Origin: Basidiobolus ranarum
Taxonomy: Eukaryota
Direction of reading: 5' to 3'
Length of the DNA stretch: 35,458 nt
NCBI GenBank assembly: GCA_040143965.1
Contig: JASJQH010006939.1
Coordinates: 1-35,458 of the forward strand
Every line of letters begins with the position of its first letter. Positions within the stretch are counted from its first letter, which is position 1. Made by a program: the position numbers and the translations under genes. Under the pieces are notes generated by a model. The model saw only the letters and a list, made by a program, of their open reading frames with translations, was not told where the DNA came from and did no database searches. Positions 3,656-34,578 of the stretch are shown here, piece after piece.

Positions 3656-6265
3656 ATGGAGCTAGAGCGATATTCTTCCCCCAACATTAATGGTAAACAA
3701 TCTTCCCTTCCGATGGAGCGCTCTTCGCCCCAAAGGGTCCATTTCGATAGCGAGACGTTTTTAACAGATAGGAGACACTTACCACTCAAAGAAATTAAAG
3801 AGGAGTTGGAGTTTCAATTAGCCACTGTCAAGAATCATCTTGTAGAATTAATTAACAGGGATTACACTGAATTTTTGGACTTGGTAACGGACTTGGTGGA
3901 TGTTGATAAAGTGGTAGACTTGCTTAGGGATCCGTTGAAGAATACTGAACTAGAAGTTAAGGTGGAGTGAATATTTTATTCCAAAAGACATATTGGTCTC
4001 TATTCCCTTACTGAGCTACATACATTGTAGATGATACGTGACAGTTTAGTTTCAATCGAGCGGTCTTTGGAGGAAAGATTGAATTATCGTAGCTCTATTA
4101 GGGAGAAGAAAGTAGTATATTTAGCATATCGAATAACACCAAGTTAAATTGAAGTTGACTTTGTTTACCTTGACTCCTATAGGCGTGTCTCCAGCTAATA
4201 TTAAATTTGGCTCAATCGGTTGAGAAGATTGAATATTTGCTTAAAGAGGAGCAGTTGGAAGAAAACACACTTTTACAAGCAGCATCGGCCGAGAACCCTA
4301 TTAGGTAATTACTTTGTAGTGTCTCCAACTGAGATCGCAATCGTTGATTCGATTCTTCATATAGTTTAGCTACCACTACAGCCACAACCATATCGAAATT
4401 CATGGAGAGAATTGCCATGGAGTACAACCAGATTCGATACTATGTGAAGAAGGGGAAGGATTTACCTTTCGTGGCTCAAATGGAACCGGTAAATACTGAA
4501 TTCATTTCACTGATTCAATCTCCAAGTTCTAATGTTTTATACATATAAAAGCGCATTGAAGGAATCAAAAAAACCCTTCAAACACGTTTATCTTCGAGCC
4601 TCCGTATCCTGATTGAGGACATAGCTCAAGGTCGGGAGTCTGCTGATACTTTAGCATCGTTGACTCAGAACCTTCGTACATATGCTCTGATCGATCGAGC
4701 TGCCGATGCCGAGGAGATATTTCGTAAACAACTCGTAGCCCCATTTATTCAAAAGGTAAACAGTGCGCATCAGACTTCTGGGAGTTTCCAGTACTAATGC
4801 TTTTCTATAGATGGTGACCTCCGAGATAATTGGAAGCAAGAATGAAGCTGACAAGTTGAAGGCAATGTTTAGTAAAATACTGGAGTTTATCAACACCAAA
4901 TGTTCAGCCATTCTGAATATTACCCAAAATGTTCTACGCGGGACAGATTACGACCTTCTTATCAATGCTATATGGTATGAGGTGGTTGACAGTATCAATC
5001 AAAATCTCCCAAAGATCTTTTCAGCCGAGAATCCCAACGTATTTCAGCAACGTTACAAGCTTACCATTGATTTCATCATCCAATTTGAGAAACTCTGTGG
5101 TTCAAGAAAAAGTTTCCTGAACTTGCGGAGTCACTCATCCTACATGAATTTCATGCAATCTTGGGAATTAACGAAATATTATCAAGCACGTTTGACTGAG
5201 ATTTCTCTTCAATTCGAAGAAGCTTTACTTAAAGAAAACTTAGAAAATACCACTAAAACTAAAGCCCAGCAATTACCCGCCACAAAATCTTTGATCACTC
5301 TGGTGAACTATTGTTGGTCAGATGAAGTCTATCTGTACCAGCTAGCCCCTAAATTCTGGAAATTGACCTTTCAATTGCTGACCAGGTATAGCAGCTGGAT
5401 TAATGACTTGATGTCTGAATTCTCGGAGCCAGGAGGTGTTCAACTGGAGAAATCAAGGAGTCAAGCAGGTCCATATCCATCCTCAACTGGAATGTCTCGC
5501 TCAATAAGCACACCGTCTAATAGTGCATCTACAACCAGTACCACCAACTTCAGTGAGGATTTCATTTTGGGACATTTGGCCGTCCTTTATCGTGACTTGA
5601 GCTACATTAGTACTGAGATACATCAGCTATTCCATGATAGAATATCTGAATTGCTACCTTCCAATCTGAAATCCGAACCTATATTCAAGCAAAGTCTCGA
5701 GGATGCCCTGCAAGAGATCACTTCAAAGCAGAAGCAAATTGGCGAAAGGATAACCCAATGTTTGACTAAGAAATGCTCAGATCAATTACGTTTGGTTAGA
5801 AATGTAACTGGACAGTATCGACATACAAATCGTAAGCCTCCCACCCAAAGCTCCCCATACGTGCAAGTGATCTTTGAACCGGTAGTGAATTATCTCAATG
5901 TTGAGAATAACTATTTCGACACTAAAGAAACCGGAGAATGGAAATCATCCATTGCAAATATCGTCACTTCTAAGTATGCTAGCATTCTTTCGGAGCTTCT
6001 TACCACTTTACAACGAACAGAAGAAAGTTTGAAACGACTCAAGAAAGGAAAGCGCACTGGTACAGCACTTGCCTCTTCTTTGTTCTCTTCATCTGGTGCT
6101 ACGAGTACTTTGAGTGATGAAGATAAGATCCGTCTACAGCTATTACTCGATGTTAAAAGATATCAACAAGAGTTAACTAAAATAGGAGTTCAACTGGAGA
6201 CTATTCAGGATCTGGATGAGTTAAAGAAGACGGTCGAGCCGTACCAAGATCTGGAGCGTACATAG
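3656..6265 (+). CDS. COG2: Conserved oligomeric Golgi complex subunit 2 (6 exons: 3656-3961, 4031-4111, 4183-4304, 4365-4488, 4552-4755, 4811-6265)
   Basis: N-terminal FDSETFL...LVELINRDYTEFLDL and ERIAMEYNQ, plus C-terminal SDEDKIRLQLLLDV, are typical COG2 motifs. GT-AG introns keep the frame. Confidence 0.9.
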
Positions 6266-7513: not shown

Positions 7514-9107
7514 ATGAAGAACTTACTACAACTCTTGGCCGTCTGCACTTTCAGTATTAGTTTAGTGACATCTCAGACAAGTGGTGCGTGTAGCAAGGTG
7601 ACCATTCGCAAAGAGATAAGGCAGTTAAGTGCACAAGAGTGGGATACTTTCGTGAACGCTGTTAAGCAACTACATACGGGCCCACCTCCGACGATATATG
7701 ATAAATTTGTAAACATACATCTGCAAAGCGTCCCGGTTGCCCATGCCATACCTGCTTTCTTTCCGTGGCATCGGATGTTTGTAAAGGCATTTGAACAACA
7801 ACTCCAACAAATCAATCCGACCATTGCCATTCCATACTGGGTAGATACCTATTATTCATTTCAACGCTTTACCTCTCATCAATACTAAATATTTTTATTA
7901 GGATTGGACCTTAGATTCCCAGGCTCCAGAGAAGAGTATTGTATGGGATTCCAAGCATTTTGGAGCTAGTGGTGATGCTAATTGTGTAGCAGATGGGCCT
8001 TTTGCTGGTTGGATTATGAATACTCCAAAGCCTCACTGTTTGCGTCGTAAATGGAACAAAGGAAAGCAAATCAGCGCACTTTACCCTCCAGAGTTGCTTT
8101 CAAGAATTCTGAATGAAGCAAAAAGTTATTCGGAGTTTCGAACTGCTGTTGAGGCCGCTCCTCATGGCTTGGTTCACGTTAACATTGGGAGTGATGGAGG
8201 TGACCTTAGTACTATGTGGAGTCCAAATGAGTAAGTAAATAACCTATAACGTAGTGGTATTATATAGAATATACTGACAATATTGCTGTATGATAGTCCT
8301 ATCTTTTGGGTGCACCATTCATTCGTAGACAAAGTTTGGGCGGATTTCCAGTTGTTAAAGCCAACTATAGCTGGTACCTACGATGGACGGGATAAATCCA
8401 ACCGTACTGTAACTCTAAACGATATTATCACTCCATTTAATGTGCGTGTTAAAGATATATTGAATGTCAATAACTCACCACTTTGTTATCGTTACACGAA
8501 CCCTCTATTGACTACACGTGGATATGTCAAGTCCCCGGCGGCCTCTGCTGCAACTCCAGCCACCAAACAACCAACTGCTGGTAATACTAATACCCGTCCT
8601 GGCGTGAAAAATCCTGGCAATAAACGTAGTGTTGGCTCAGAACTTGGCTGTACTATTGACCCTGATGATCGTTCTGACCAAACTGGACTACGTACACCAC
8701 ACAGACTCCCCTCCAAATGGGTGGAAATGATGGAATTGAATCATGAACGTGTTAGAGCTATGGAAGATCAATATGCCGTATTTATCAATTCTCTAAATGA
8801 AGAACACTCTTATGTATCCCCTATTTCACTCTCTCGTCACTCAGACACCATTGAGAAGTTTGTCGATGGAAAACTCGAGACCCTACACCTCTTCGATGGC
8901 GTATCCAAGATCCCCGTACTTAATCTGACCAATTTGGCCCAAGTGGGGGAACCGGTGGTGAAGATAGTCGAACCAATTGTTGATATAGTGGATGAGTTGT
9001 TGAACAACCAGAAGCATGCGAGTAAAGATGAACAACCAGAGTCGAATGTATATCAAACGGAAGATGTACTAAGCATTAAGATCTCTGGATTGAATATTGG
9101 TCTTTAA
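7514..9107 (+). CDS. Secreted type-3 di-copper tyrosinase/catechol oxidase family protein (3 exons: 7514-7840, 7902-8230, 8297-9107)
   Basis: Hydrophobic signal peptide; IRKEIRQLS; CuA H-x7-H-x8-H (IHLQSVPVAHAIPAFFPWHR); PYW|DW across intron 1; CuB PHGLVH...SPND|PIFWVHHSFVD; C-Y-x-Y motif; then P/A/T linker and C-terminal domain. Confidence 0.93.
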
Positions 9108-9462: not shown

Positions 9463-10170
<708 letters not shown>

Positions 10171-10980: not shown

Positions 10981-13648
10981 TTATGTGCCATACTTGGCTT
11001 TGTAGAAAGAGGGTGGAAGTTTTTCCAAGATTGCGAACCATGGCCTCTCTACAACACACAGTGAGTCAGGACCAGTGAAGTCGAGGAACATAAGTGGTTG
11101 GTATTTGAACAAAGCTTGGAAGTTTTGTTCAAATTGCATCATTTTCTGACTGATAGGTTGGTTGGCTTCGAGTGTGAGTGCGGAGATTACCTTGGGATTG
11201 AAATTGGATTCTTCAATCTTCTTACGAACCTCCTTACCAATCTTGGACTGCTCCTTGGAGATTTCAATACGCTTACGTTTGGCGATGTTAATGATTGTAT
11301 CTTTCTCGACAGGTTTGCTTATGTCTACCATACACAGGTAGTTAGCACCCCAGAGTACGATGGTGTTTTTACGTGCAGGATTAAAGCTGACTCCCATAAT
11401 CTTCTCCTTGAGCTGCATGAACCGAGTGGGAAGGTTTTGAGAATATTGTCTAGACCAATCGGTTAATCTTTTGGCCTCGACGTCATACAAGTAAAATTCG
11501 TTGGAAGATAGCGGGACCACTAAGGTAGGTGAATGGGTGTGGAAATAAAGACCGGTGTGAACTGAAGTGAATTTAGGCAAGGTGCAATGATACTGAAGTG
11601 CGTCCAAATTGTAAACATAAATTCGGTTGAACAAATCTCCACTTGCCAACCACTGGCCATCCTCACTGACACTTAATGAAGAGATAGTACCAACTCTGGC
11701 ATCATCGTTCTGGCTGTCATCATCATCGGTCATCACTCCATCACCATGGTGCTGGCCAAAGGTACGAAGAATCTCGAAAGATCCATTCTCCCACTCGGCC
11801 AAATCGATGATCTTGATGTATGAATCAGTGGTAGCAACCACGAGCTTACTCGAGTCAGGTGTAAAGACAATGTTATGTGCACCTTTGTAGGGGTTGAGTC
11901 TGCTGGTAATGGCCTCTGAAGGGAAATTCTTAATCTTCTGAATTTTGACGACACCGGGGACACTAGGATCCTCAGTCAATCTGAAGAGCTTGATATTGTA
12001 AATATCGGAGACAGCAATCCACTGGCCATCTTCGGATATGGCGCTGGCAATGATGTGATTATCATCCTTGAGCTTGATTTCCAATAAAGTCTCTAGATTT
12101 TCAATCAAACCAAGATCCGTACCGATCTCCAGATTACCATATGGTTGCATGGGAGGCGCAGCCTTGCCAAGTCTCCAAACACGGACTGAGTTGGGGAAGC
12201 GGCACATCAATAGACGTTTAGATTTGGAAAGTGAGATTAGAGGTTTTTGAGGGAAGTAAGGAAGACGCCATTGGTACATGTTGGGGAATTCGGCGGCAGG
12301 ACAAACAACCAATTGTACATCAACACCACCAGATACCAAAGCATTAACAGGTCGACTCTCATCTAGTGCCAAAGCTTTAACATCATGTGAATGGTATCTA
12401 CGGGTACCAGCTAAAACCCATTTCATCTCGCCAGTCTGTTCAGCCTTTGAGGCATCTTTGCTAGAAGATTTCGAGTTACGACCTTTTCTATCTACAGGAG
12501 CGTAGTTGGAATTTTGAACAAGTCGGAACTGAATGACCTTTCTGTCTACACCTGAGGTAAAGATAGTATCACCTTCCTATAGGATTTTTACTTGTTAATA
12601 TGGAATCAAAAGTCGCAGAATTCTGACTATATCATACTAACCTCATTTGCAACAACACACAAAATATCTGCGGAGTGAGCGTTAAAGCTTTGAAGCATAG
12701 TACCCATCTCTCCGTCCCAGAATTTGACATGACCTAACGAGTCACCACTAACAATAGAGCCATTCCTAATAAAAGTAAAAAAGTAAGTCGTGACTACCAT
12801 TAAACTCTGTTGAGAAAATCTTAACATACTTGAGAACTTTAACAGCCCACACGAGTGTGTCCTCACGACCAAATCTTTCTACGGTCATACGGGAGGTTGG
12901 TCGACCTTGTTTAACATCCCACTTGCGGATACAACTATCAGCAGAACCAGTGACGATGATCTTGTCATCAGGGCTCCAAGCTAATGAAAGAATACGAGCT
13001 AACAAACGAAAAATGAATGAGTATAAATTAAATCCATATATCTGCAGAACCTAATATGTTACCTTTTTGTTTAACAAATGACCTTTCGAAGGATAAATCC
13101 CCATCTATTATATTGAAAATTCTAATGCAACCATCCTCACAACCAACTGCCAATTTAGTTCCTACATTGTTGACAGCCAAACACCATACTGCACCACCGT
13201 GTGAATCAATGGTTTGCTAGGATTACCAAAAAAAAGAGCATATCAAGTCAGTTACTCTGTTTACAAAGTTCATATTACAAATATCATTTTTAAGTACCTT
13301 GGGACAAAGTGTAGTAAGATCCCATTCGGTTATTAAAGAATTCAAACCGGCAGAAAAGAGTCTAGGAGACTCTGACAAAAGCTTTTTTTGTGCCTCAGCT
13401 TTCTCTTCGGGAGTATCATAGTCATCGTCACCCAAGACAGTTTGGTGAGCCCAGGTTAAAGCTTCAATATTGTAATTGGCACCACCTGGAATAATCTTCT
13501 CAAGATGCCAACTTTTTGGGTTCCATATTTCAACGTCTCCGCCAGCTCTAGCGCAAGCTAAAAGCGGCTTGGTGGATTTGGGAGTAAAAGTAAGCGCATT
13601 AATTGCAGCTGGAGTATAATCGACAAAACGACACCTGTGAACCTCCAT
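10981..13648 (-). CDS. UTP4: U3 snoRNA-associated protein 4 (Utp4/Cirhin), WD40; ~5 exons (13648-13298, 13217-13062, 12998-12830, 12767-12642, 12575-10981, approximate)
   Basis: Diagnostic N-terminus MEVHRCRFVDYTPAAINALTF; RLFSAG; IVSGDSLGHVKFWD; RRYHSHDVKAL; LVSGGVD; C-terminal YQPLMFLDF...VVERPW...LPPSFYKAKYGT. Confidence 0.95.
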
Positions 13649-17401: not shown

Positions 17402-17911
<510 letters not shown>

Positions 17912-21431: not shown

Positions 21432-23922
21432 TCACTTGTTGACAACTGACATTTGATTTAAAGCTGAACCTGCTTTGAACCAATCGATTTGATTTTCGTT
21501 GAATGTGTGATTCACTGGAATCTCGAGTGTTTCCCCATTATCACGTTGAATACGAAGAGTCAACGGCTTTCCTGGAGTAAAGTCCGTAAGACCAACGATG
21601 GCGATGTTATCTGAAGGCTTAATCTTGTCATAATCTGTGGGATTCGCAAAAGTCAAAGGAAGAACACCTTGCTTCTTTAAATTGGTTTCGTGAATGCGAG
21701 CGAAAGACTTGGTAATAACTGCAATACCCCCCAAGTGACGAACTTCAAGAGCTGCATGTTCTCGAGAAGATCCCTCTCCATAATTTTCATCCCCGATGAC
21801 AACCCATTTAATTCCTTTGGCCTTGTAATCTCTAGCCACCGCAGGGACTGCATCATATTTACCAGTCAGCTTATTTTTGATCTTGTTTGCCTCACCATTT
21901 TCCGAATTAATCGCACCAATCAACATATTGTTTGAAATATTATCCAAGTGACCGCGATATTTGAGCCAAGGACCAGCCATGGAGATATGATCGGTGGTAC
22001 ACTTACCTTTAACCTTGATCAGAACGGGAAGGTTCTCAGGATCTTTTCCATCCCATTGGGAGAAAGCCTCCAAAAGTTGTAAGCGTTTACTGTTAGGGTT
22101 GACACTCACCGAGACAGAATTCTTGTCTTGAGGTGGGGCTTGGTAAGTATCCTCACCAGGTTCGTACCCACGAACTGGAAGTTCATCACCATATGGAGGG
22201 GTAAATTGGAATTGTTTACCATCAGAACCGGTAAGTTTATCAGTCAAGGGATTGAATCGAAGATCGCCAGCGAAACTCATAGCAGTAACAATCTCCGGTG
22301 AGGCTACAAAGGCGTGGGTGGCTGGGTTACCATCATTTCTACCGGTAAAATTTCTATTATAGGATGTGATGATCGAGTTCTTTTCTCCTTGTTTTACATC
22401 TTTACGATCCCATTGACCGATGCATGGACCACAAGCATTAGCAAGAACAGTGCCTCCAGCCTTGTCAAATACATCTATTAATCCATCACGAGTGATTGTA
22501 GCACGAATTTGTTCAGAACCGGGGGTAATGGTAAATTTAGATTTAACTTGGAGACCGTGGTCAAGTGCTTCTTGAGCAAGAGATGCTGAGCGAGACATAT
22601 CTTCGTAAGAGGAATTGGTACATGAACCAATAAGACCAACTTTGATCTCAGCAGGCCAGGCATGGTCCTCAACTGCATCTTTGAATTTGCTTATAGGTGT
22701 GGCAAGATCGGGAGTGAAAGGACCATTTACATGTGGCTCTAGCTCAGACAGGTTGATTTCAATAACTTGGTCGTAGTTGGCATTCTTATCAGCTTTAAGA
22801 TTGTAAGCAAACTGGTCAGAAGCTCTAGCAATTTGGTCGCGCCTAGTTGCACGAAGATAATCTCCCATACGCTTATTATAAGGAAATACTGAGGTAGTAG
22901 CCCCAATTTCAGCACCCATATTGCATATAGTGGCCATACCTGTGCAAGACAAGCTCTCGACGCCCGGTCCGAAGTATTCGACTATAGCGCCAGTTCCACC
23001 CTTAACCGTCAAAATGCCAGCTACTTTAAGGATAACATCCTTCGGAGAGGTCCATCCACTGATCGCACCAGTCAATTTAACACCAATAACCTTGGGGCAT
23101 TTCAATTCCCAAGGGATATCAGCCATAACGTCAACAGCGTCGGCACCCCCAACACCAATGGCACACATACCAAGACCACCAGCGTTGGGAGTGTGAGAGT
23201 CAGTACCGATCATAAGGCCACCAGGAAAAGCATAGTTTTCAAGTATAATCTGATGAATAATACCTGATCCTGGTTTCCAAAAACCCAGCCCATATTTGGC
23301 GGTACAGGTAGCCAAGAAGTCATAAACTTCCTTATTGATATCTTTGGCTCTGGCCAAATCTTCCTCACCTCCAATTTGGGCTTCAATCAAATGATCACAG
23401 TGAACAGTGGATGGAACAGCTACGTTAGGGAGTCCAGCAGACATAAATTGTAATAGAGCCATTTGAGCGGTGGCATCCTGACAAGCGACACGATCCGGTC
23501 TAAGTTTAAGGTAACTCGTACCACGTTCAATATCTTGACTCTTTGCGTCATCCAAATGACCATAGACAATCTTTTCAGCAAGAGTGAGAGGATGATTCAA
23601 ACTAAAAGCATGGCGATTGGTATGTTGTAGCGCATGATATCCATTTGTTAGTTGAGTTTTAAGAACTTACCGTTTTCTAATAACAGATAGATTATCCTCG
23701 ATTCTCTGATAGTTGATATATTTATCTTTCTCCAGGTTTGACATGGAGATCTTTTGAGGTACAGTGCCACCGACAGCTGTAGCCAGGGTTCTTGTTGAAG
23801 CCACCTTGCGAACAGCGGGGGAAAGGTTCTGTAAATAAAATAACTTGGTTAAATGTGATATTATCGCATATATAGATGATGTAATGACATACTCTTGCAG
23901 CGCGAGTGAATGATAACACCAT
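21432..23922 (-). CDS. ACO1: Mitochondrial aconitate hydratase (3 exons: 23922-23893, 23828-23671, 23601-21432)
   Basis: Presequence [72 protein letters not shown] (three Fe-S Cys ligands), [19 protein letters not shown]. Confidence 0.98.
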
Positions 23923-25183
23923 TGTAGCGATAAGTAAAAGTGGGAATCAATGAAGCTTTGTCGGTAGTAGTACGGGGAAGCAGGGTATTTGTATGTTTTT
24001 GTTGCCCCATACACAGACCAATCACTCAAATACTCTTGACAAGAATACGATTTGTGACGTGATGAATACCCCAAGTCACGGGTAAAATGATTGAATTAAC
24101 TTCGTTGTGTGGATACTTTAATATGAGGATTGGAATCAATGAATGGTTATCAATAGAACCTCTATACTGTAAACCTGGGCAAGGTATTTCATTATCCAGC
24201 TGTCCAGCTGATAAAGTGACTGTATAAAGAATGGTAAAATCACATGGAGGGCAAATCATCGAAATAGGAAATGGTTTTGCCTATTACTACGGTCAGCTCG
24301 ATTAGGAAGGGGTTAAGCGTTTTGTTTGCTCAACCCTTACCTATTTGGACTCCGCTTGAATTAGGAAACCAAGCTCATCTGTTCTGGGCCACTAGTCATT
24401 CGATTTATCATGCAATTCCACATAATTGTTTCAACGCGAGACATGACTTTGCACAAGTGCAAGGTCGGTGAAGGGGTGATTTTTGTCACCTTCCGTTGGA
24501 ATAATCTAAACAAATATGAATGTATGCTCACAATTCATAAGGTCAATTTGCTGCTATTAATGTCCACCAGACTTTCAATATTCTAAATGCTCAATGGGAG
24601 CCCCGCATAATTAGTCATGGTGGGAAGATATCCTGCTTGGATGTACTGTCTCGGATACGGTAAGTGAGTGTGTAAGTATTGAAATAATGTAGTAACGCAT
24701 GCATCGATGCTAATCAAGTCCAAAATAATATCAGTAATCAAGAATCCAGTACCATCAAAGGAACTCTGCTCAACTCTAGAGATTTTCTGCGCATCTCAGT
24801 TTATGCACATCACTTTTTACACTACTCAATAAAGCAAGGGCAGTCCATTCAATATCCTTGAATACTACAATCGTTTAAGGGTATATCATAGTGAATCCGA
24901 AAGTAATACAAAATGCATAGTTGATCGAGTTCAGCTTATTTAATCAAAAAATTCGAAGCTTACTCGCTTAAGCATTGTATATCTATAGGATAAAGACAAG
25001 ACTATCTTTGAAAGATCATGAAGTGGGTATATAGCTGACAATATGAGAAAAGTTCAGCAAGGAAGGCGATAGGTAGTGGGCTATGCACAATTGGTTTAGC
25101 ACTGGACTATCATCTCGTAGACATTAACATGACAAACAAGTTATCGTTAAAGTGTAAAGTCATATGTGAAGGATGGTGAACTT

Positions 25184-26986
25184 TTAGCTAGGTGTGTTGA
25201 TGCGCTTATACTCGTCTCTAGCTCTTGAGATTATTCTCAGAGTAGATCTCCGCTCATACAATGGCTTCACTATGTCGATGATGAAAAAGTCATCATTATT
25301 CACGGGAATCTTGCGATTTAGAAAGGTCATGATTTCTTCAAATCCCATTTTAAGCAGTGAAACTATCCAATTTAAACTTGTTCATAAATGTACTAGTAGA
25401 TGATTAAGGTGTTGTCAATCTTACCCTCGTGATACTTCAGTAAAGCTACAGACACACATATCAGCATGTCAAGGCCATGAAGTAAAAAAATGTCCCATAT
25501 TCGAAGTGTGGTTCGATGAGGCACGACACCCGATGAAAAAAGTGTGAGATACCACCGAGCCGCGAAAAAGCTCAATTGGATATCAAGTGTGTTCTATATT
25601 AGGAATCAATTCAAAAGTCACGTCAGTCCATTGACAATTAGAATGGTAAGCAAAGATAAACCAATACCAGGTATTGTAGTAACTTGGGGGTGTGCTTTTT
25701 CATAAGTTTCGCTTGAACATGGAATGTCTCCATCAATTTGGGAAACCCAGGGAGGAACATTTCTCGTAGGGAGTAGTGTTCAAATAGACAACTTAACGCG
25801 ACAAAGGATTTCTAATGTTCAATACGGCGTGAATATAAGATCTAACTTAATTGTCAATTGGGCTCTTACCTCTTCAGATATATAGGCAATTAAAGTGGAG
25901 GCCACGCTTGCCATCCCTTGGCAATAGCCAACTTCTTTATCATAGTTGGAAAACGATGTCAGAACAGTGAACAGCATCCGTTGTCTATTCAAGGATCGTA
26001 TTTGAATGGAGTTTGGTGATTGACTTCTATAATCAATGTACTAACCCAAGCCCATATCTTTGCTTAAACATAATATTATCTTGCAAAGTACGCGGGATGT
26101 CTAAATCAATTTGTGTCTCGTCCGTAGATTCCAAGCTGGAGAGTACCTTTAGAAATGTATCAAGTTACTGTTACGAACATACGCAAATAAGATACAACAA
26201 TAAGTGAGTACTTGATAGTCACTGGTCAGTTTTCTCTCGGTCTTCATGCTTATTTTTCGGGTGGATAGGAAATACCTATATTTCATCGCATTATTAGTGT
26301 TAAGATAAGATACTTTAAAGTAGTCTTGACTCCTCGGAAGGGGTTGGCTTACCAATATTCTCCACGCCAACAATCGGGAACACCTTTGTAAGTTCTTCTC
26401 ACCAACTGGTACAAAATAACGATGTGTGATTTAGTAGATATTTAAATATAATACTAAAAATCGCTATATATACCTTTCTACTTTCTTTAAAAGAGTACAA
26501 ACGAAGGTTGGAAACACCAATAGTCTTACTCAAAACCATTCCCTTCCACTTTAATGCACGTTCCACCTCTTTCTCTAGGGAGCTAGATAGGTATGTTAAT
26601 AAAACTGTTTTAATAATCACTTACCAAAGAAAAATAGGTGCGAGATACGAGCCATTTTACCTAGTATTCGGAGAAGTTTGATCCTCTTCAAGGAAGCCAT
26701 ATCTGTCAACTTGGCTCGCAAGTTTTTCCAAGTCAAGGGCACTTTCTGATAAGCAAGTGGAAGTAGATTGATAAGATTTTCGGATTTCCGAACGCGATAT
26801 GGAATAGTTGGAGAGGTTTCGTCTTTTATTAACAAAAGTCTCTTGAATATCGTTGACGGAATTCTGCGAGTCCGAGCAATTCTCTGATATTTCATCCACT
26901 TCAACTCGAGGTATCGGAGGTAATTCTTTTAAATCCAATTCGAACGATGGAACCATTTTCTCCATAAATACTGGGTTTTCACTCAT
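25184..26986 (-). CDS. TBC-domain Rab GTPase-activating protein (about 9 exons; start codon uncertain)
   Basis: VDRYGF, RALKWKGM, TYKGVPDCWRGEYW, Arg finger QIDLDIPRT, Gln finger VGYCQGM, RWYLTLF, TLRIWDIFLLHG, GFEEIMTFL. Confidence 0.9.
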
Positions 26987-27643
26987 ACTGGCTTTTCTAA
27001 AATTTATATCAATACAGGGCTTGGAGGAAGTAGTGGGTGGTATGCTAGATGTAAATAAAGTGTACAAGAAAGTGAAAAATAGTACGAAGCTGTATTAATG
27101 CTTCAGACCAAAATTTCGTACAAAAAACCAAAAGTGTAGGTTCTTTCTACTTCAAAATCGGAATATAACACAAACTAAGGAACTAACAAAGTTTAAGGAA
27201 ATATTGACAGTTTCAAAAAGATATTAGACTTTCAAGGCTGAAGTATCCTCGACTTCCAAGGCATTATAAGCGAAGTTCCATTAAGCCAATCAGATTAAGC
27301 TGGTTTTGGAATAAACAATGGTTCATTTAATTATTATATTCCATCAATTTAAGACTTGGCAATGATGAGAGTTAAATAGATATATATAGTCTAACATAGA
27401 CGATCACATGTTCCAAAAATCACATCAATAAAAGTGATGAGAGAAGACTCAATAAATGCTTGAAGTCACAAATTCACTCGTGTTAAACTCGTAACTAATA
27501 AATAGCATGTTGATCAATAAAATAAATATTGTCAACAGTTCATACACTCAAAAACGGGATTTATTGATTAACAAGACATATTGAACAAGGTAGAAAAATG
27601 CCAAAGTATATATAATGTAAATTGGAAGTCATGTACTGAATTG

Positions 27644-28431
27644 TTAAGCAGTTTCGGTGGTTTGGGTTTGAGGTTCAACGCTCTCTTTGTGCTTGATTAC
27701 ATCCTCCTTAATCAATAATTCCTCTAATTCTCCCGACTGATGCATATTGAGAACTATATCACAACCTCCGACAAACTCTCCTTTGACATATACTTGAGGA
27801 ATAGTAGGCCAATTACTGCAAATAATAATCAGACAAAAATATCTCAATCATAGCGTGAATAAATAGAAACTTACGAATATTCTTTGATACCGTTTCTAAG
27901 CTCAGGATCCTCAAACACATTGAAAGCCTTCAAATCTTTGATATCTAGTTTTATCAACCAAATCAGTATGTATAGCAATATAACTATTATCGAAGAAAGC
28001 TACTCACCATAAAGATCGAGAATGGAAGAGACGGCCTTACTGAATCCGCACTGTTATCGAAGAATTTTGAGTGAGTTTTCAGTTAATAGGAGAAAAAAGC
28101 AAATATAGTTACCATTGGCTCTTCAGGTGTTCCCTTCATGAATAAACAAACTTCATTCTCTTTAACGGTCTAAAAGAATTGTAAATACAAACTTAATAAC
28201 AGATATACATAAATACGTAAACACAGTATAAGGACCTTATCAAGCTTATGACGAAGCTCTTCAGACAGAAATCTGACTGAGCAAGCCATACGTGGCATAA
28301 TAGTGTTTCTGCTTGTGGCAGCCAAAAGTGGGCTGGAAGACAGAGCCTATATGACCAACGAGTTAGTAACATGGTCAAACGCGGATGATATATCAAATAA
28401 ATACCAAGCGTGAAGCAAATTTAGAAATCAT
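27644..28431 (-). CDS. GRX5: Mitochondrial monothiol (CGFS) glutaredoxin Grx5, multi-exon
   Basis: [13 protein letters not shown]...[48 protein letters not shown]..., [37 protein letters not shown]. Confidence 0.95.
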
Positions 28432-29236
28432 CACAAGAATGTATAAAGAAGCAAAGAGGTCAAAGTATTACTATCAATTGGGTGACAATATAAAAATATA
28501 TGTAACCAACTCCAAGGTCTGGATGAATCTATTAGCGAGAAAAAATCCGAAAAGATTTATATACATTTATCCAATATGATAAACTAGGTTTAAGCTGCGG
28601 CGTTTTCACCAATTATATTCGTTTGGAGCATCTTCGCGTAAATCAACCCAGAGAGTTAAAGGTTTGGGGAAGTGTCAAGTACAGAAGACATCTTAAGGTT
28701 ATCTTGAGCAATAGAATCAACACCAATCTTCACATTAATCATCTGGAGAAGCAAAAAGAAGATTTCTGTCCCACCCTGATGATCTTTATATAATTCATAT
28801 AGGACCATTAAATAAAAAAAACCAACTATTTCCATGAGTTGATATGATTGCTTCAAATAGTGTCGCTAGGCACATGAATTTGGCAAGCAACAAATTCCGT
28901 TGGAAATTACACTGAAATTGGGCTTACTTGAGCTGGAAACAACTACTGTGTTGATGATGATTAATGTGGGTTATTATTTACTTGGTTCTCAAACCAAAGC
29001 AGAGACAATGGGAAATAGCGGCAAAGAGTGGCTTGTAGGAAGTGAATATAACAAGGTATCTAACAAAGCTAAGAAAAAATAAAAGCAAATAATTCGGAAT
29101 GTATGCTTGAGTGAAGAGTGGGAGGGGTAAAGATACATGACAAATGGTGGATATCACAAAGTAATAATAAAGATTCAATGCCAAATATGATGATGCTGTG
29201 TTGAACATACAAAAATGCCTTTATATGACGATCAGG

Positions 29237-30999
<1,763 letters not shown>

Positions 31000-32545: not shown

Positions 32546-34578
32546 ATGATACGCGGCGAAGAGCTGAAAAATTATATTGAGGAGTATTTACAATACGACG
32601 TAAGAGATGTCGAACAATTTTATGCCAAAACCAAAACCAGTAGATTAAGTTTGACTCTGGATCTTGAACACAACCTCAACATAGCATATTCTCCTTCCGA
32701 TTTAGTGTCTGGGATACTGGTTTCTTGGCTATCCTTGTCTGAAACTCAAGCTCTCTTAAAAACGTATCTTTCAGAAAATCTAAGCGATAACGTGCTAGAT
32801 GCACTCCCCGAGGGATATTTTGTAGAGAAAAAAACGAAACACTTTGAGGTACCTTTACATCCAGGCTCATATAAGCGAAGGGAACTGCGCGAATATGTAG
32901 CAAAGAGTTGGCAGTATTTAACTGGTAAGTTGAGTTATGTATTTTGTTACCAGCCTATAAATTAATCGATGGATAATGCACCTAGGCATGAGTCGACCAA
33001 ATTTTGCAAATCCAAAAAAACGACCGAAAAATCTGCCCAAACAGATCCCTTGGAAGGACCCACTTTCTATGTCAATACCTCAGCTACGTCTAGCCAGTCA
33101 ATGGCTGTCCTACACCATCGATGGTATAGCAGCTAAACGGATTTCTCCAGGTATATATCACTACGGATATGTACTATCATCGAGTAATGACTGACGTTTT
33201 TATATCAATATTCATAGACCAATTCAGAGACAAAGGAGTCGAGGATTCTTTAAAAGCAGATATAATCAAAGGCTTCGAAATCGTAAAGAAGCTGGATAAC
33301 TTCAAGCTGACTTCAAACAAAAATTCAACATCCAAATTTGTAGATACAATCGCGCCGCTTGTGAGAGAAATGCCTCGGGCAACGGATTATGTTCGAGTTT
33401 CTAATGAAGGTCCACGTCGAGTAAGTTGTGATGTAATTAGATGGGATGGTTCGTACCCTGCATTTGATTTACCCGCAAATAATCAAGATGCTGAAAGAGG
33501 TGATAAGAATATTCGAGATTTCCGGCCAAGGTCTATGAGTAATATCGAAACAAGAAAGTTGGAAAGAGCAGACTCCAAGGAGGATATTCCGTCTAATGAA
33601 CCTTACCAACCATTTCGAACTCTCTCATTTTCATCTAAAAATCCCAAATCGATTACACAAACCTCACCGTTGGCTAATCAAACGGGATTGCAGTTCGTAA
33701 TGAAGCCTATAAACCACCCAACTATGCAGAGTTTGCCTTTTAAGGTCAAGCCTAACGTTGATGCGTCAGGTGGACCTCCTTCTAATGATACACTGAATCA
33801 TACTGATCCAAATCAGTCATCTCAATATCAATTTGTACAGCACCGAATGGTTGGCACTGACGTACAAAGGCCACCGTCAATAGCTTCACATCATCCAATT
33901 CCTGGTGCCTTACCTCCAACTCAAACAACCTCAACTAACCCACAACCTGCGTATAGCTCCAGATTCCTTCCTACAACAGTGGCCTCTCAGCCACTTCCAC
34001 CAAACATCATAATTCCGTCTAATTCTCCACATAATGGCGAAGATATTAAGAAGGAACGAAAGAATTCTGTCAGTAAAAAATCCCCTAAAAGAAAACATAA
34101 ATTGGCCGAAGACACTCGAGCTTCCAACGAAGCTAGTTCACCTCAACCCGCTCCAGAAGGCCCTACCAATCGTCGATTATCCTTAGGAGCTAAGCCTAAT
34201 GATAATTCATCTAGCACCCAATTCGTTTTTGTGTCTTACCCTGATCGGAGAGGATCTGTCAGTTCTGTCTCTAGTCTAAACAATGCCTCCAACACAGCAT
34301 TAGCTCCATCTACCGCTAGCAATACAAGTGTTAGTTCTTTTAACAGTGGAAGCGGCGCGGATACGAAAGAAACACCCACCGGGACTCCCGAGCCGCTACA
34401 ACAGCGATCATCTCCAACATCAAAAGATTCGCCAAAGTCCCAACTTACATTTCATAGTTACGTACCACCAAGCGATGGAATAGTAACTCAAACAAAGACA
34501 AAGAGGAAATCCATTTCAAACGGACGCAAGAAACAATTTGCATTCTCTGATTACATGAAGTCATCTCCACCGTCTTAA
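32546..34578 (+). CDS. Putative transcription factor: folded N-terminal domain resembling the NRF1/EWG/P3A2 DNA-binding domain plus a long S/P/Q/T-rich disordered tail (3 exons: 32546-32924, 32986-33150, 33218-34578)
   Basis: Three ORF pieces joined by GT-AG introns in compatible phase; basic NLS-like segments (KKSPKRKHK, KTKRKSISNGRKK). The CDS itself is well supported; the function is inferred. Confidence 0.8.

What the first reader, a model, noticed from the sequence alone, without database searches (positions are those of the whole stretch)
32546..33150. Fungal protein with an NRF1/EWG/P3A2-like DNA-binding domain, head-to-head with mitochondrial genes
Seen: splicing 32924^32986 gives VPLHPGSYKRRELREYVAKSWQYLTGMSRPNFANPKKRPKNLPKQIPWKDP. 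Recalled human NRF1: IPVSVDKMTQAQLRAFIPEMLKYSTGRGKPGWGKESCKPIWWPEDIPWANV. These align without gaps over 51 aa with 12 identities (P, LR, Y-TG, P, P, P, IPW) and conservative pairs (F/Y, I/V, K/R, W/F). The upstream VEQFYAKTKTSRLSLTLD also parallels NRF1 LDEYTTRVGQQAIVLCIS in the dimerisation region. The NRF1 WW is replaced by NL. The motif is split by an intron, so the ORF track hides it. Known: NRF1 is generally regarded as an animal regulator of nuclear-encoded mitochondrial genes. Inference: a deep opisthokont NRF1-like family surviving in early-diverging fungi, possibly linking to other P-x-W-W-P domains (EIN3, fungal DUF2841), here adjacent to MDM38, GRX5 and ACO1. The alignment is from memory and unscored.
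Basis: partly seen in the sequence, partly recalled or inferred. Interest (0 to 1): 0.8.

Follow-up and report, generated by a model that had tools for sequence, protein, structure and literature searches.

The report
Fungal protein with NRF1-like DNA-binding fold
A three-exon gene of the fungus Basidiobolus ranarum encodes an uncharacterised, probably nuclear protein whose best-conserved 77-residue core most resembles the DNA-binding domain of the animal regulator NRF1, but only at the level of predicted fold and not by any significant sequence score.

Summary
The gene model is right. Exons 32546-32924, 32986-33150 and 33218-34578 (+) give a 634-aa protein identical to the deposited Basidiobolus ranarum hypothetical protein K7432_002400. 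NRF1 chain 8k3d_A was the sole PDB hit in 3 of 5 whole-protein or profile searches (E 0.46-1.2), second in one and absent in one. Pfam finds nothing in 0 of 3 family proteins.

Fold evidence points the same way each time. NRF1 ranks first among 48,161 chains for one AlphaFold model and second/third for a paralogue's model. It is Foldseek's top hit for both models (E 1.4 and 0.043). A PF10491 cluster tops the ESM-Atlas structure search. Every score is modest.

Only 1 of 3 NRF1 base-contact residues is kept, and the WW motif is missing. Detectable relatives are three Basidiobolus proteins only.

My reading (about 0.6): a very divergent, Basidiobolus-restricted DNA-binding protein with an NRF1-type DNA-binding domain and a different target sequence. 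It is not a canonical NRF1 family member. A link to the neighbouring mitochondrial genes is unsupported.

The parts
32546..32924 (+). Exon 1 (aa 1-126 plus the first base of G127). An in-frame stop lies two codons upstream of the ATG.
   Evidence: All three family proteins start at the same Met.
32925..32985 (+). Intron 1, 61 nt, GTAAGT...TAG, 33% GC. It splits the NRF1-like motif.
   Evidence: The sequence across the junction (YLTG-xSRP) is conserved in P0005 and P0006.
32986..33150 (+). Exon 2 (rest of G127, aa 128-181, first base of D182).
33151..33217 (+). Intron 2, 67 nt, GTATAT...TAG, 30% GC.
33218..34578 (+). Exon 3 (aa 182-634 and TAA). It is mostly a Ser/Thr/Pro/Asn/Gln-rich tail: 49% of aa 271-634 are these residues.
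32843..33134 (+). NRF1-DBD-like core, aa 100-176 (intron 1 lies inside). It consists of helix 111-126, a Pro-rich 30-residue loop 127-156 and helix 157-177. Segment 101-185 has net charge +10. This is the best-conserved large block, with 57 of 77 positions invariant in 3 proteins.
   Evidence: models; fold matches.
32888..32890 (+). Codon of R115, which faces NRF1 R206. It is the only one of the three base-reading residues that is kept.
   Evidence: Alignment. NRF1 residue roles come from PMC10810270, section 17.
32546..32815 (+). N-terminal module, aa 1-90, acidic. It is a possible counterpart of NRF1's dimerisation domain. Helix-strand-strand-helix was predicted in 1 of 2 models, at pLDDT 34-51.
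33409..33465 (+). Short conserved motif, aa 246-264 (begins GPRRVSCD). 16 of 19 positions are invariant. Role unknown.
34048..34095 (+). Basic cluster, aa 459-474 (KKERKNSVSKKSPKRK). It looks like a bipartite nuclear localisation signal; that label is my recall.

Best explanation
The gene encodes a fast-evolving nuclear DNA-binding protein found, as far as searches show, only in Basidiobolus. Its conserved basic core (aa about 100-176) adopts the fold of the NRF1 DNA-binding domain: a recognition helix, a long proline-rich loop and a second helix.

Shown here:
- the gene model;
- the conservation pattern;
- the positive charge of the core;
- the repeated top-ranked fold match.

Inferred:
- Helix 111-126 lies in the major groove, with R115 reading a base as NRF1 R206 does.
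- The loop 127-156 follows the groove.
- Because the partners of NRF1 N242 and R244 are D151 and L153, and the WW pair is N142/L143, the target sequence is probably not GCGCATGCGC.
- The acidic N-terminal 90 residues may form a dimerisation module like NRF1's.
- The 450-residue Ser/Thr/Pro-rich tail, with its basic cluster and six [KR][KR]x[ST] sites, would serve nuclear import, regulation by phosphorylation and activation.

I treat it as a remote homologue of the NRF1 DNA-binding domain, not as a member of the NRF1/EWG/P3A2 family.
For: VIA-align against 48,161 PDB chains, without Foldseek:

Foldseek against 350,542 chains:
- NRF1 is the top hit for both models: E 1.4 over 74 columns, and E 0.043 and 0.062 over 162 and 208 columns.
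- The longer alignments span both NRF1 domains.

ESM-Atlas structure search, using a different predictor's model of aa 98-185:
- Row 1 is a cluster in which 98% of members carry PF10491 (TM 0.62, 76 aligned).

Sequence:
- NRF1 was the sole PDB hit at E<=10 in 3 of 5 whole-protein or profile searches.
- Identities fall on R206, Y215, T217, G218, P222, P231, P235 and I238-P239-W240 (with numbering).

Other:
- The core is the most conserved block (57 of 77 invariant).
- The core is basic, net +10.
- The predicted helix-loop-helix order matches NRF1's alpha5, linker2 and alpha6.
Against: - No score is significant on its own.
  - PDB sequence E values are 0.46-1.2.
  - Chance hits of equal strength appeared.
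  - The next rows are within 1 Z unit: 2gf4 and EIN3 at 5.0, and DdrC at 6.2 ranks above NRF1.
- The Pfam scan found nothing at E<=10 in 0 of 3 proteins or in 0 of 3 exon pieces, apart from an unrelated E 5.7 hit.
- The models are poor overall (mean pLDDT 41.8 and 44.4). The core reaches 54-72 in one model and 76-83 in the other.
- The searches are not independent. All derive from three sequences that are 58-77% identical, and Foldseek also uses residue identity.
- 2 of the 3 base-reading residues, and the WW pair, are not kept.
- The Atlas search by language-model features gave no usable hit for the core.
- No intermediate sequences link the family to NRF1.
Confidence: 0.6

Rival explanations
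1. Chance resemblance. The protein is a Basidiobolus orphan whose small two-helix-plus-loop core merely shares a common arrangement with NRF1. The 12-13 identities would be coincidence, helped by proline- and lysine-rich composition. Its function, DNA-binding or not, would be unrelated to NRF1.
For: - Sequence E values are 0.46-1.2, and equal-strength chance hits occur.
- Repeat-amplified spurious hits show how easily this sequence collects weak matches.
- Pfam is negative.
- The models have low confidence.
Against: One family holds 2 of the 48,161 representative chains. It tops, or nearly tops, sequence-only, structure-only and mixed searches from two predictors and two paralogues. That is hard to get by chance. 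NRF1 rows show 18-22% identity in the structural alignments. Apart from the GTF2I domains, which reach up to 18%, other rows of the VIA-align tables stay at or below 17% and are mostly under 14%.
Confidence: 0.25
2. The core belongs nearer to another family with the same helix-loop-helix fold than to NRF1 proper. The candidates are the fungal PF11001 family (AFUB_079030/YDR124W-like helical bundle), the GTF2I repeat and the plant EIN3 core. NRF1 would come first only because solved NRF1 structures exist.
For: - A PF11001 cluster (Ascomycota) is row 2 in the Atlas structure search, at TM 0.60 against 0.62 for NRF1.
- The host is a fungus, as are PF11001 carriers.
Against: - Pfam reports neither PF11001, EIN3 nor GTF2I at E<=10 for 0 of 3 proteins.
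- NRF1 outranks each of them in every list.
- None of them gave a PDB sequence hit.
Confidence: 0.1

Closest known systems
NRF1 / EWG / P3A2 (Pfam PF10491 Nrf1_DNA-bind; PDB 8k3d, 8k4l)
   Same: - Helix, long Pro-rich loop, helix, over about 77 residues (rmsd 2.8-3.1).
- Ungapped motif match that includes the base-reading Arg (R206/R115) and IPW.
- The domain sits after an N-terminal module of about 90-120 residues and before a long tail.
- Basic surface.
   Different: - No Pfam match.
- N242 faces D151, R244 faces L153, and W233/W234 face N142/L143.
- About 14 fewer residues after the loop.
- The N-terminal module is acidic, shorter and not confidently modelled.
- Found only in Basidiobolus.
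- No GCGCNTGCGC-like site nearby.
PF11001 AFUB_07903_YDR124W_hel (fungal; I recall it as the former DUF2841; function unknown)
   Same: Predicted fold similarity (TM 0.60 over aa 98-176). Fungal host.
   Different: No sequence or Pfam match. It ranks below NRF1. The only paper passage seen says its role is unknown (PMC8545126).
EIN3 DNA-binding core (4zds) and GTF2I repeat domains (2eje, 2dn5, 1q60, 2d99)
   Different: Lower rank and no sequence signal. EIN3 shows 10-13% identity. The relationship among these folds was not established here.

Membership tests
NRF1/EWG/P3A2 (PF10491) | Match to the Pfam Nrf1_DNA-bind profile at or above its cut-off | tested here: not met
   hmmscan at E<=10 gave no PF10491 row for P0004, P0005 or P0006 (0 of 3), nor for the 3 exon pieces.
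NRF1/EWG/P3A2 (PF10491) | DNA-binding-domain fold: alpha5, linker2, alpha6/7 | tested here: inconclusive
NRF1/EWG/P3A2 (PF10491) | Base-reading residues R206, N242, R244 | tested here: not met
   1 of 3 is kept: R115 faces R206, D151 faces N242 and L153 faces R244 (alignment; residue roles).
NRF1/EWG/P3A2 (PF10491) | P-x-W-W-P ... I-P-W motif in linker2 | tested here: not met
   The P, P and IPW are kept, but WW is replaced by N142/L143. All three Basidiobolus proteins keep N142; position 143 is L, M or V.
NRF1/EWG/P3A2 (PF10491) | N-terminal MADS-like dimerisation domain (helix, two strands, helix) | tested here: inconclusive
   The strands (35-38, 44-47) flanked by helices appear only in the P0006 model, at pLDDT 34-51; the P0004 model has none. 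Foldseek alignments of 162 and 208 columns span both NRF1 domains.
NRF1/EWG/P3A2 (PF10491) | Homodimer formation | not tested
   The complex-prediction job (two copies of aa 1-100) was never accepted because the queue was full.
NRF1/EWG/P3A2 (PF10491) | Binding to GCGCATGCGC | not testable with these tools
   The only related check: 0 GCGCNTGCGC sites with <=1 mismatch in the window, against 0.85 expected.
PF11001 (YDR124W-like helical bundle) | Pfam profile match | tested here: not met
   No row at E<=10 for 0 of 3 proteins. There is a fold hint only (TM 0.60).
EIN3 (DNA-binding core) | Fold and profile match | tested here: inconclusive

The most novel reading that the evidence does not exclude
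The Basidiobolus protein is a surviving fungal offshoot of an ancient NRF1-type DNA-binding fold. That fold would also underlie the Dikarya PF11001/YDR124W-like proteins, the plant EIN3 core and the GTF2I repeat. NRF1's DNA-binding domain would then be one branch of a pan-eukaryotic superfamily rather than an animal invention, and PF11001 proteins of unknown function would be DNA-binding regulators.
Probability: 0.2. Interest if true: 0.75.

Novelty: new variant of a known kind. Interest (0 to 1): 0.5.

Why it matters
The paper read here describes NRF1 and names only animal homologues (PMC10810270, section 21). A fungal protein with the same DNA-binding fold would push that fold's origin back to at least the opisthokont ancestor. 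It would also give a first functional handle on a Basidiobolus orphan protein, and perhaps on the uncharacterised fungal PF11001 family. It would not show that fungi use an NRF1-like circuit for mitochondrial genes: the base-reading residues differ and no NRF1 site lies nearby. My searches found no report of a fungal NRF1/EWG relative. Supplementary tables and database taxonomic listings were not searchable. I vaguely recall that PF10491 may already be listed for some early-diverging fungi, which would lower the novelty.

Tried and rejected
- **Pfam.** Exon pieces gave only TRI4_N at E 5.7. P0006 gave only a transportin TPR hit at E 0.2. I treated both as noise.
- **Word-indexed homologue searches.** These returned 2 proteins among 345 candidates, 2 of 1780 and 2 of 11. 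All were the two Basidiobolus orthologues.
- **Exhaustive HMMER over 1.84 billion representatives.** It gave 3 hits. One, P0007, is a 2689-aa bacterial repeat protein matched in 13 stretches to aa 10-69. I rejected it as repeat-amplified.
- **Exon 1 alone against PDB.** It hit 6 designed leucine-rich-repeat proteins through one 19-residue motif (aa 75-93) matched repeatedly, each stretch with i-Evalue >= 390. I rejected these.
- **Chance PDB hits.** Acylglycerol kinase scored E 0.45 and OsmC E 0.74.
- **Atlas search on aa 1-270.** Feature scores were 0.84-0.86 (leads only) and structure TM was <=0.34.
- **Atlas feature search on the core.** No usable hit.
- **NRF1 site search in the window.** 0 matches.
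  - Own-genome search: no genome is held.
  - Dimer prediction: it never entered the queue, so nothing can be said about dimerisation.
- **Profile-profile comparison with PF10491.** This was not possible, because no tool supplied NRF1-family sequences as stored proteins.

Full report
**What is there**

The window matches a 35,458-bp contig of Basidiobolus ranarum, judged from the record of the protein it encodes. On the + strand an ATG at 32546 opens a three-exon gene, with an in-frame stop two codons upstream.
- Exon 1 is 32546-32924.
- Intron 1 is 32925-32985 (61 nt, GTAAGT...TAG).
- Exon 2 is 32986-33150.
- Intron 2 is 33151-33217 (67 nt, GTATAT...TAG).
- Exon 3 is 33218-34578.

A script that joined the exons by coordinate gave 1905 nt and 634 aa. 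The product is identical to P0004, NCBI 'hypothetical protein K7432_002400 [Basidiobolus ranarum]'. If intron 1 is kept, a stop follows after 139 codons. The sequence across the first junction is conserved in the B. meristosporus orthologue P0005 and in P0006. RNA-seq could not be consulted.

**Relatives**

Word-indexed searches found only P0004 and P0005, which is 617 aa and 77% identical over exon 1. The counts were 2 proteins among 345 candidates, 2 of 1780 and 2 of 11.

An exhaustive HMMER search of 1.84 billion representatives, using a profile of the first 266 residues, gave 3 hits at E<=0.001:
- P0005.
- P0006, a 330-aa partial second B. ranarum protein, K7432_016966, 62% identical to P0004.
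- P0007, a bacterial repeat protein that I reject as repeat-amplified.

At sequence level the family is therefore confined to Basidiobolus, with at least two paralogues in B. ranarum.

**Sequence comparison with NRF1**

Pfam reports nothing at E<=10 for P0004, P0005 or P0006 (0 of 3).

Results against 177,635 distinct PDB sequences were:

| Query | NRF1 chain 8k3d_A | Other hit |
|---|---|---|
| P0004 | only hit at E<=10; E 0.46, 12.6 bits, aa 103-154 against chain positions 19-70 | none |
| 2-sequence profile | only hit, E 1.2 | none |
| 3-sequence profile | only hit, E 1.2 | none |
| P0005 | second, E 1.2 | acylglycerol kinase, E 0.45 |
| P0006 | not listed | OsmC, E 0.74 |

By sequence alone the match is at noise level.

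I numbered the printed chain from six residues named in the NRF1 structure paper: G220, G223, W224, N242, R244 and S245 (PMC10810270; outline and sections 16, 17 and 21 read). On that numbering the identities are on R206/R115, Y215/Y124, T217-G218/T126-G127, P222/P131, P231/P140, P235/P144, I238-P239-W240/I147-P148-W149 and S245/S154.

Of the three base-reading residues (R206, N242, R244), only R206 is kept. N242 faces D151 and R244 faces L153. W233/W234 face N142/L143.

**Fold evidence**

AlphaFold2 with the three-sequence alignment gave poor models overall (mean pLDDT 41.8 for P0004 aa 1-266, and 44.4 for P0006). The core is better modelled. Its pLDDT is 54-72 in P0004 and 76-83 in P0006, across helix 111-126, loop 127-156 and helix 157-177. 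This is the same order as NRF1's alpha5, linker2 (aa 218-249) and alpha6.

| Search | Model | NRF1 result | Nearest other rows |
|---|---|---|---|
| Foldseek, 350,542 chains | P0004 | top hit, E 1.4, 74 columns | none better |
| Foldseek, 350,542 chains | P0006 | ranks 1-2, E 0.043 and 0.062, 162 and 208 columns | TFIIIC chain 8ffz_B, E 0.10 |
| ESM Atlas, its own model of aa 98-185 | P0004 | row 1, cluster with 98% PF10491 members, TM 0.62 | row 2, PF11001 cluster, TM 0.60 |

The 162- and 208-column Foldseek alignments cover both NRF1 domains. Their rmsd of 14-15 Å is what differently placed domains would give.

None of these scores is significant by the tools' own guides, and the searches share their input. 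Still, one family holds 2 of the 48,161 representative chains and heads sequence-only, structure-only and mixed searches from two predictors. Its structural alignments show 18-22% identity. Apart from the GTF2I domains, which reach up to 18%, other rows of the VIA-align tables stay at or below 17% and are mostly under 14%. I take this as more than chance and put homology of the core to the NRF1 DNA-binding domain at about 0.6-0.7.

**Other features**

- The core is the best-conserved large block, with 57 of 77 positions invariant against 47-54% in the N-terminal 99 residues.
- The core is basic: segment 101-185 has net charge +10, while aa 1-100 have net -6.
- In the P0006 model the N-terminus reads helix 20-28, strands 35-38 and 44-47, then helix 53-62. 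That order matches the helix-strand-strand-helix heart of NRF1's dimerisation domain. However, pLDDT there is 34-51, and the P0004 model shows helices only.
- The dimer prediction never ran, so dimerisation is open.
- The tail (aa 271-634) is 49% Ser/Thr/Pro/Asn/Gln. It carries a basic cluster at 459-474, and six [KR][KR]x[ST] sites occur across the protein. Reading these as a nuclear import signal and basophilic-kinase sites is my recall, not a test.

**Context**

The divergent upstream neighbour matches LETM1_RBD (29527-30165, -). I recall Mdm38 as its yeast name. Further upstream on the same strand lie a glutaredoxin fragment (27644-27847, E 0.0014, below cut-off), RabGAP-TBC pieces (25393-26040) and aconitase (21432-23666). 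No GCGCNTGCGC site with <=1 mismatch occurs in the window, against 0.85 expected. The adjacency is real, but it gives no evidence of regulation.

**Comparison and verdict**

The protein probably works like NRF1 in that it likely reads DNA with an NRF1-type helix-plus-loop module. It fails the membership tests for the NRF1/EWG/P3A2 family in three ways: no profile match, 1 of 3 base-reading residues kept, and no WW pair.

The only paper passage seen on the DUF2841 domain, which I recall as PF11001's former name, calls its role unknown (PMC8545126, one passage).

Literature searches found no report of a fungal NRF1/EWG relative or of an NRF1-EIN3 link (listings only). Supplements and database taxonomic tables were not searched.

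I rate it a new variant of a known kind, with interest 0.5.

Noticed in passing
P0006 (not in the window): B. ranarum has a second, partial copy of this gene, K7432_016966, on a 2562-bp contig. It is 62% identical to P0004, so the gene is duplicated within the genome.
   Followed up: partly
window 33409-33465 (aa 246-264): A 19-residue motif beginning GPRRVSCD is 16 of 19 invariant among the three proteins. It is more conserved than its surroundings and lies in a region modelled as disordered. No explanation.
   Followed up: no
window 32768-32824 (aa 75-93): A single leucine-rich-repeat-like motif (LSENLSDNVLDALPEGYFV) pulls designed LRR proteins out of PDB by repeated matching. It is one unit only, so it is probably coincidence.
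   Followed up: partly
window 21432-30931, minus strand: A run of genes with mitochondrial homologues lies on one strand: aconitase, a glutaredoxin fragment and a LETM1-like gene. A RabGAP-TBC gene is interspersed at about 25393-26040. The LETM1-like ORF piece at 30404-30931 contains no Met, so its first exon must lie further upstream, closer to the studied gene.
   Followed up: partly
window 4811-6265, 8268-9107, 9463-10170, 10981-12576, 17402-17911: Other genes in the window by Pfam: COG2 C-terminal domain (4811-6265), a tyrosinase fragment below cut-off (8268-9107), polyubiquitin with 3 repeats (9463-10170), a WD40 protein (10981-12576) and a histone H3-type fold (17402-17911).
   Followed up: no
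fold-search lists for aa 100-176: Three unrelated DNA-binding modules recur just below NRF1: the EIN3 core, GTF2I repeats and the PF11001 family. This hints that they may share one helix, long loop, helix fold.
   Followed up: partly
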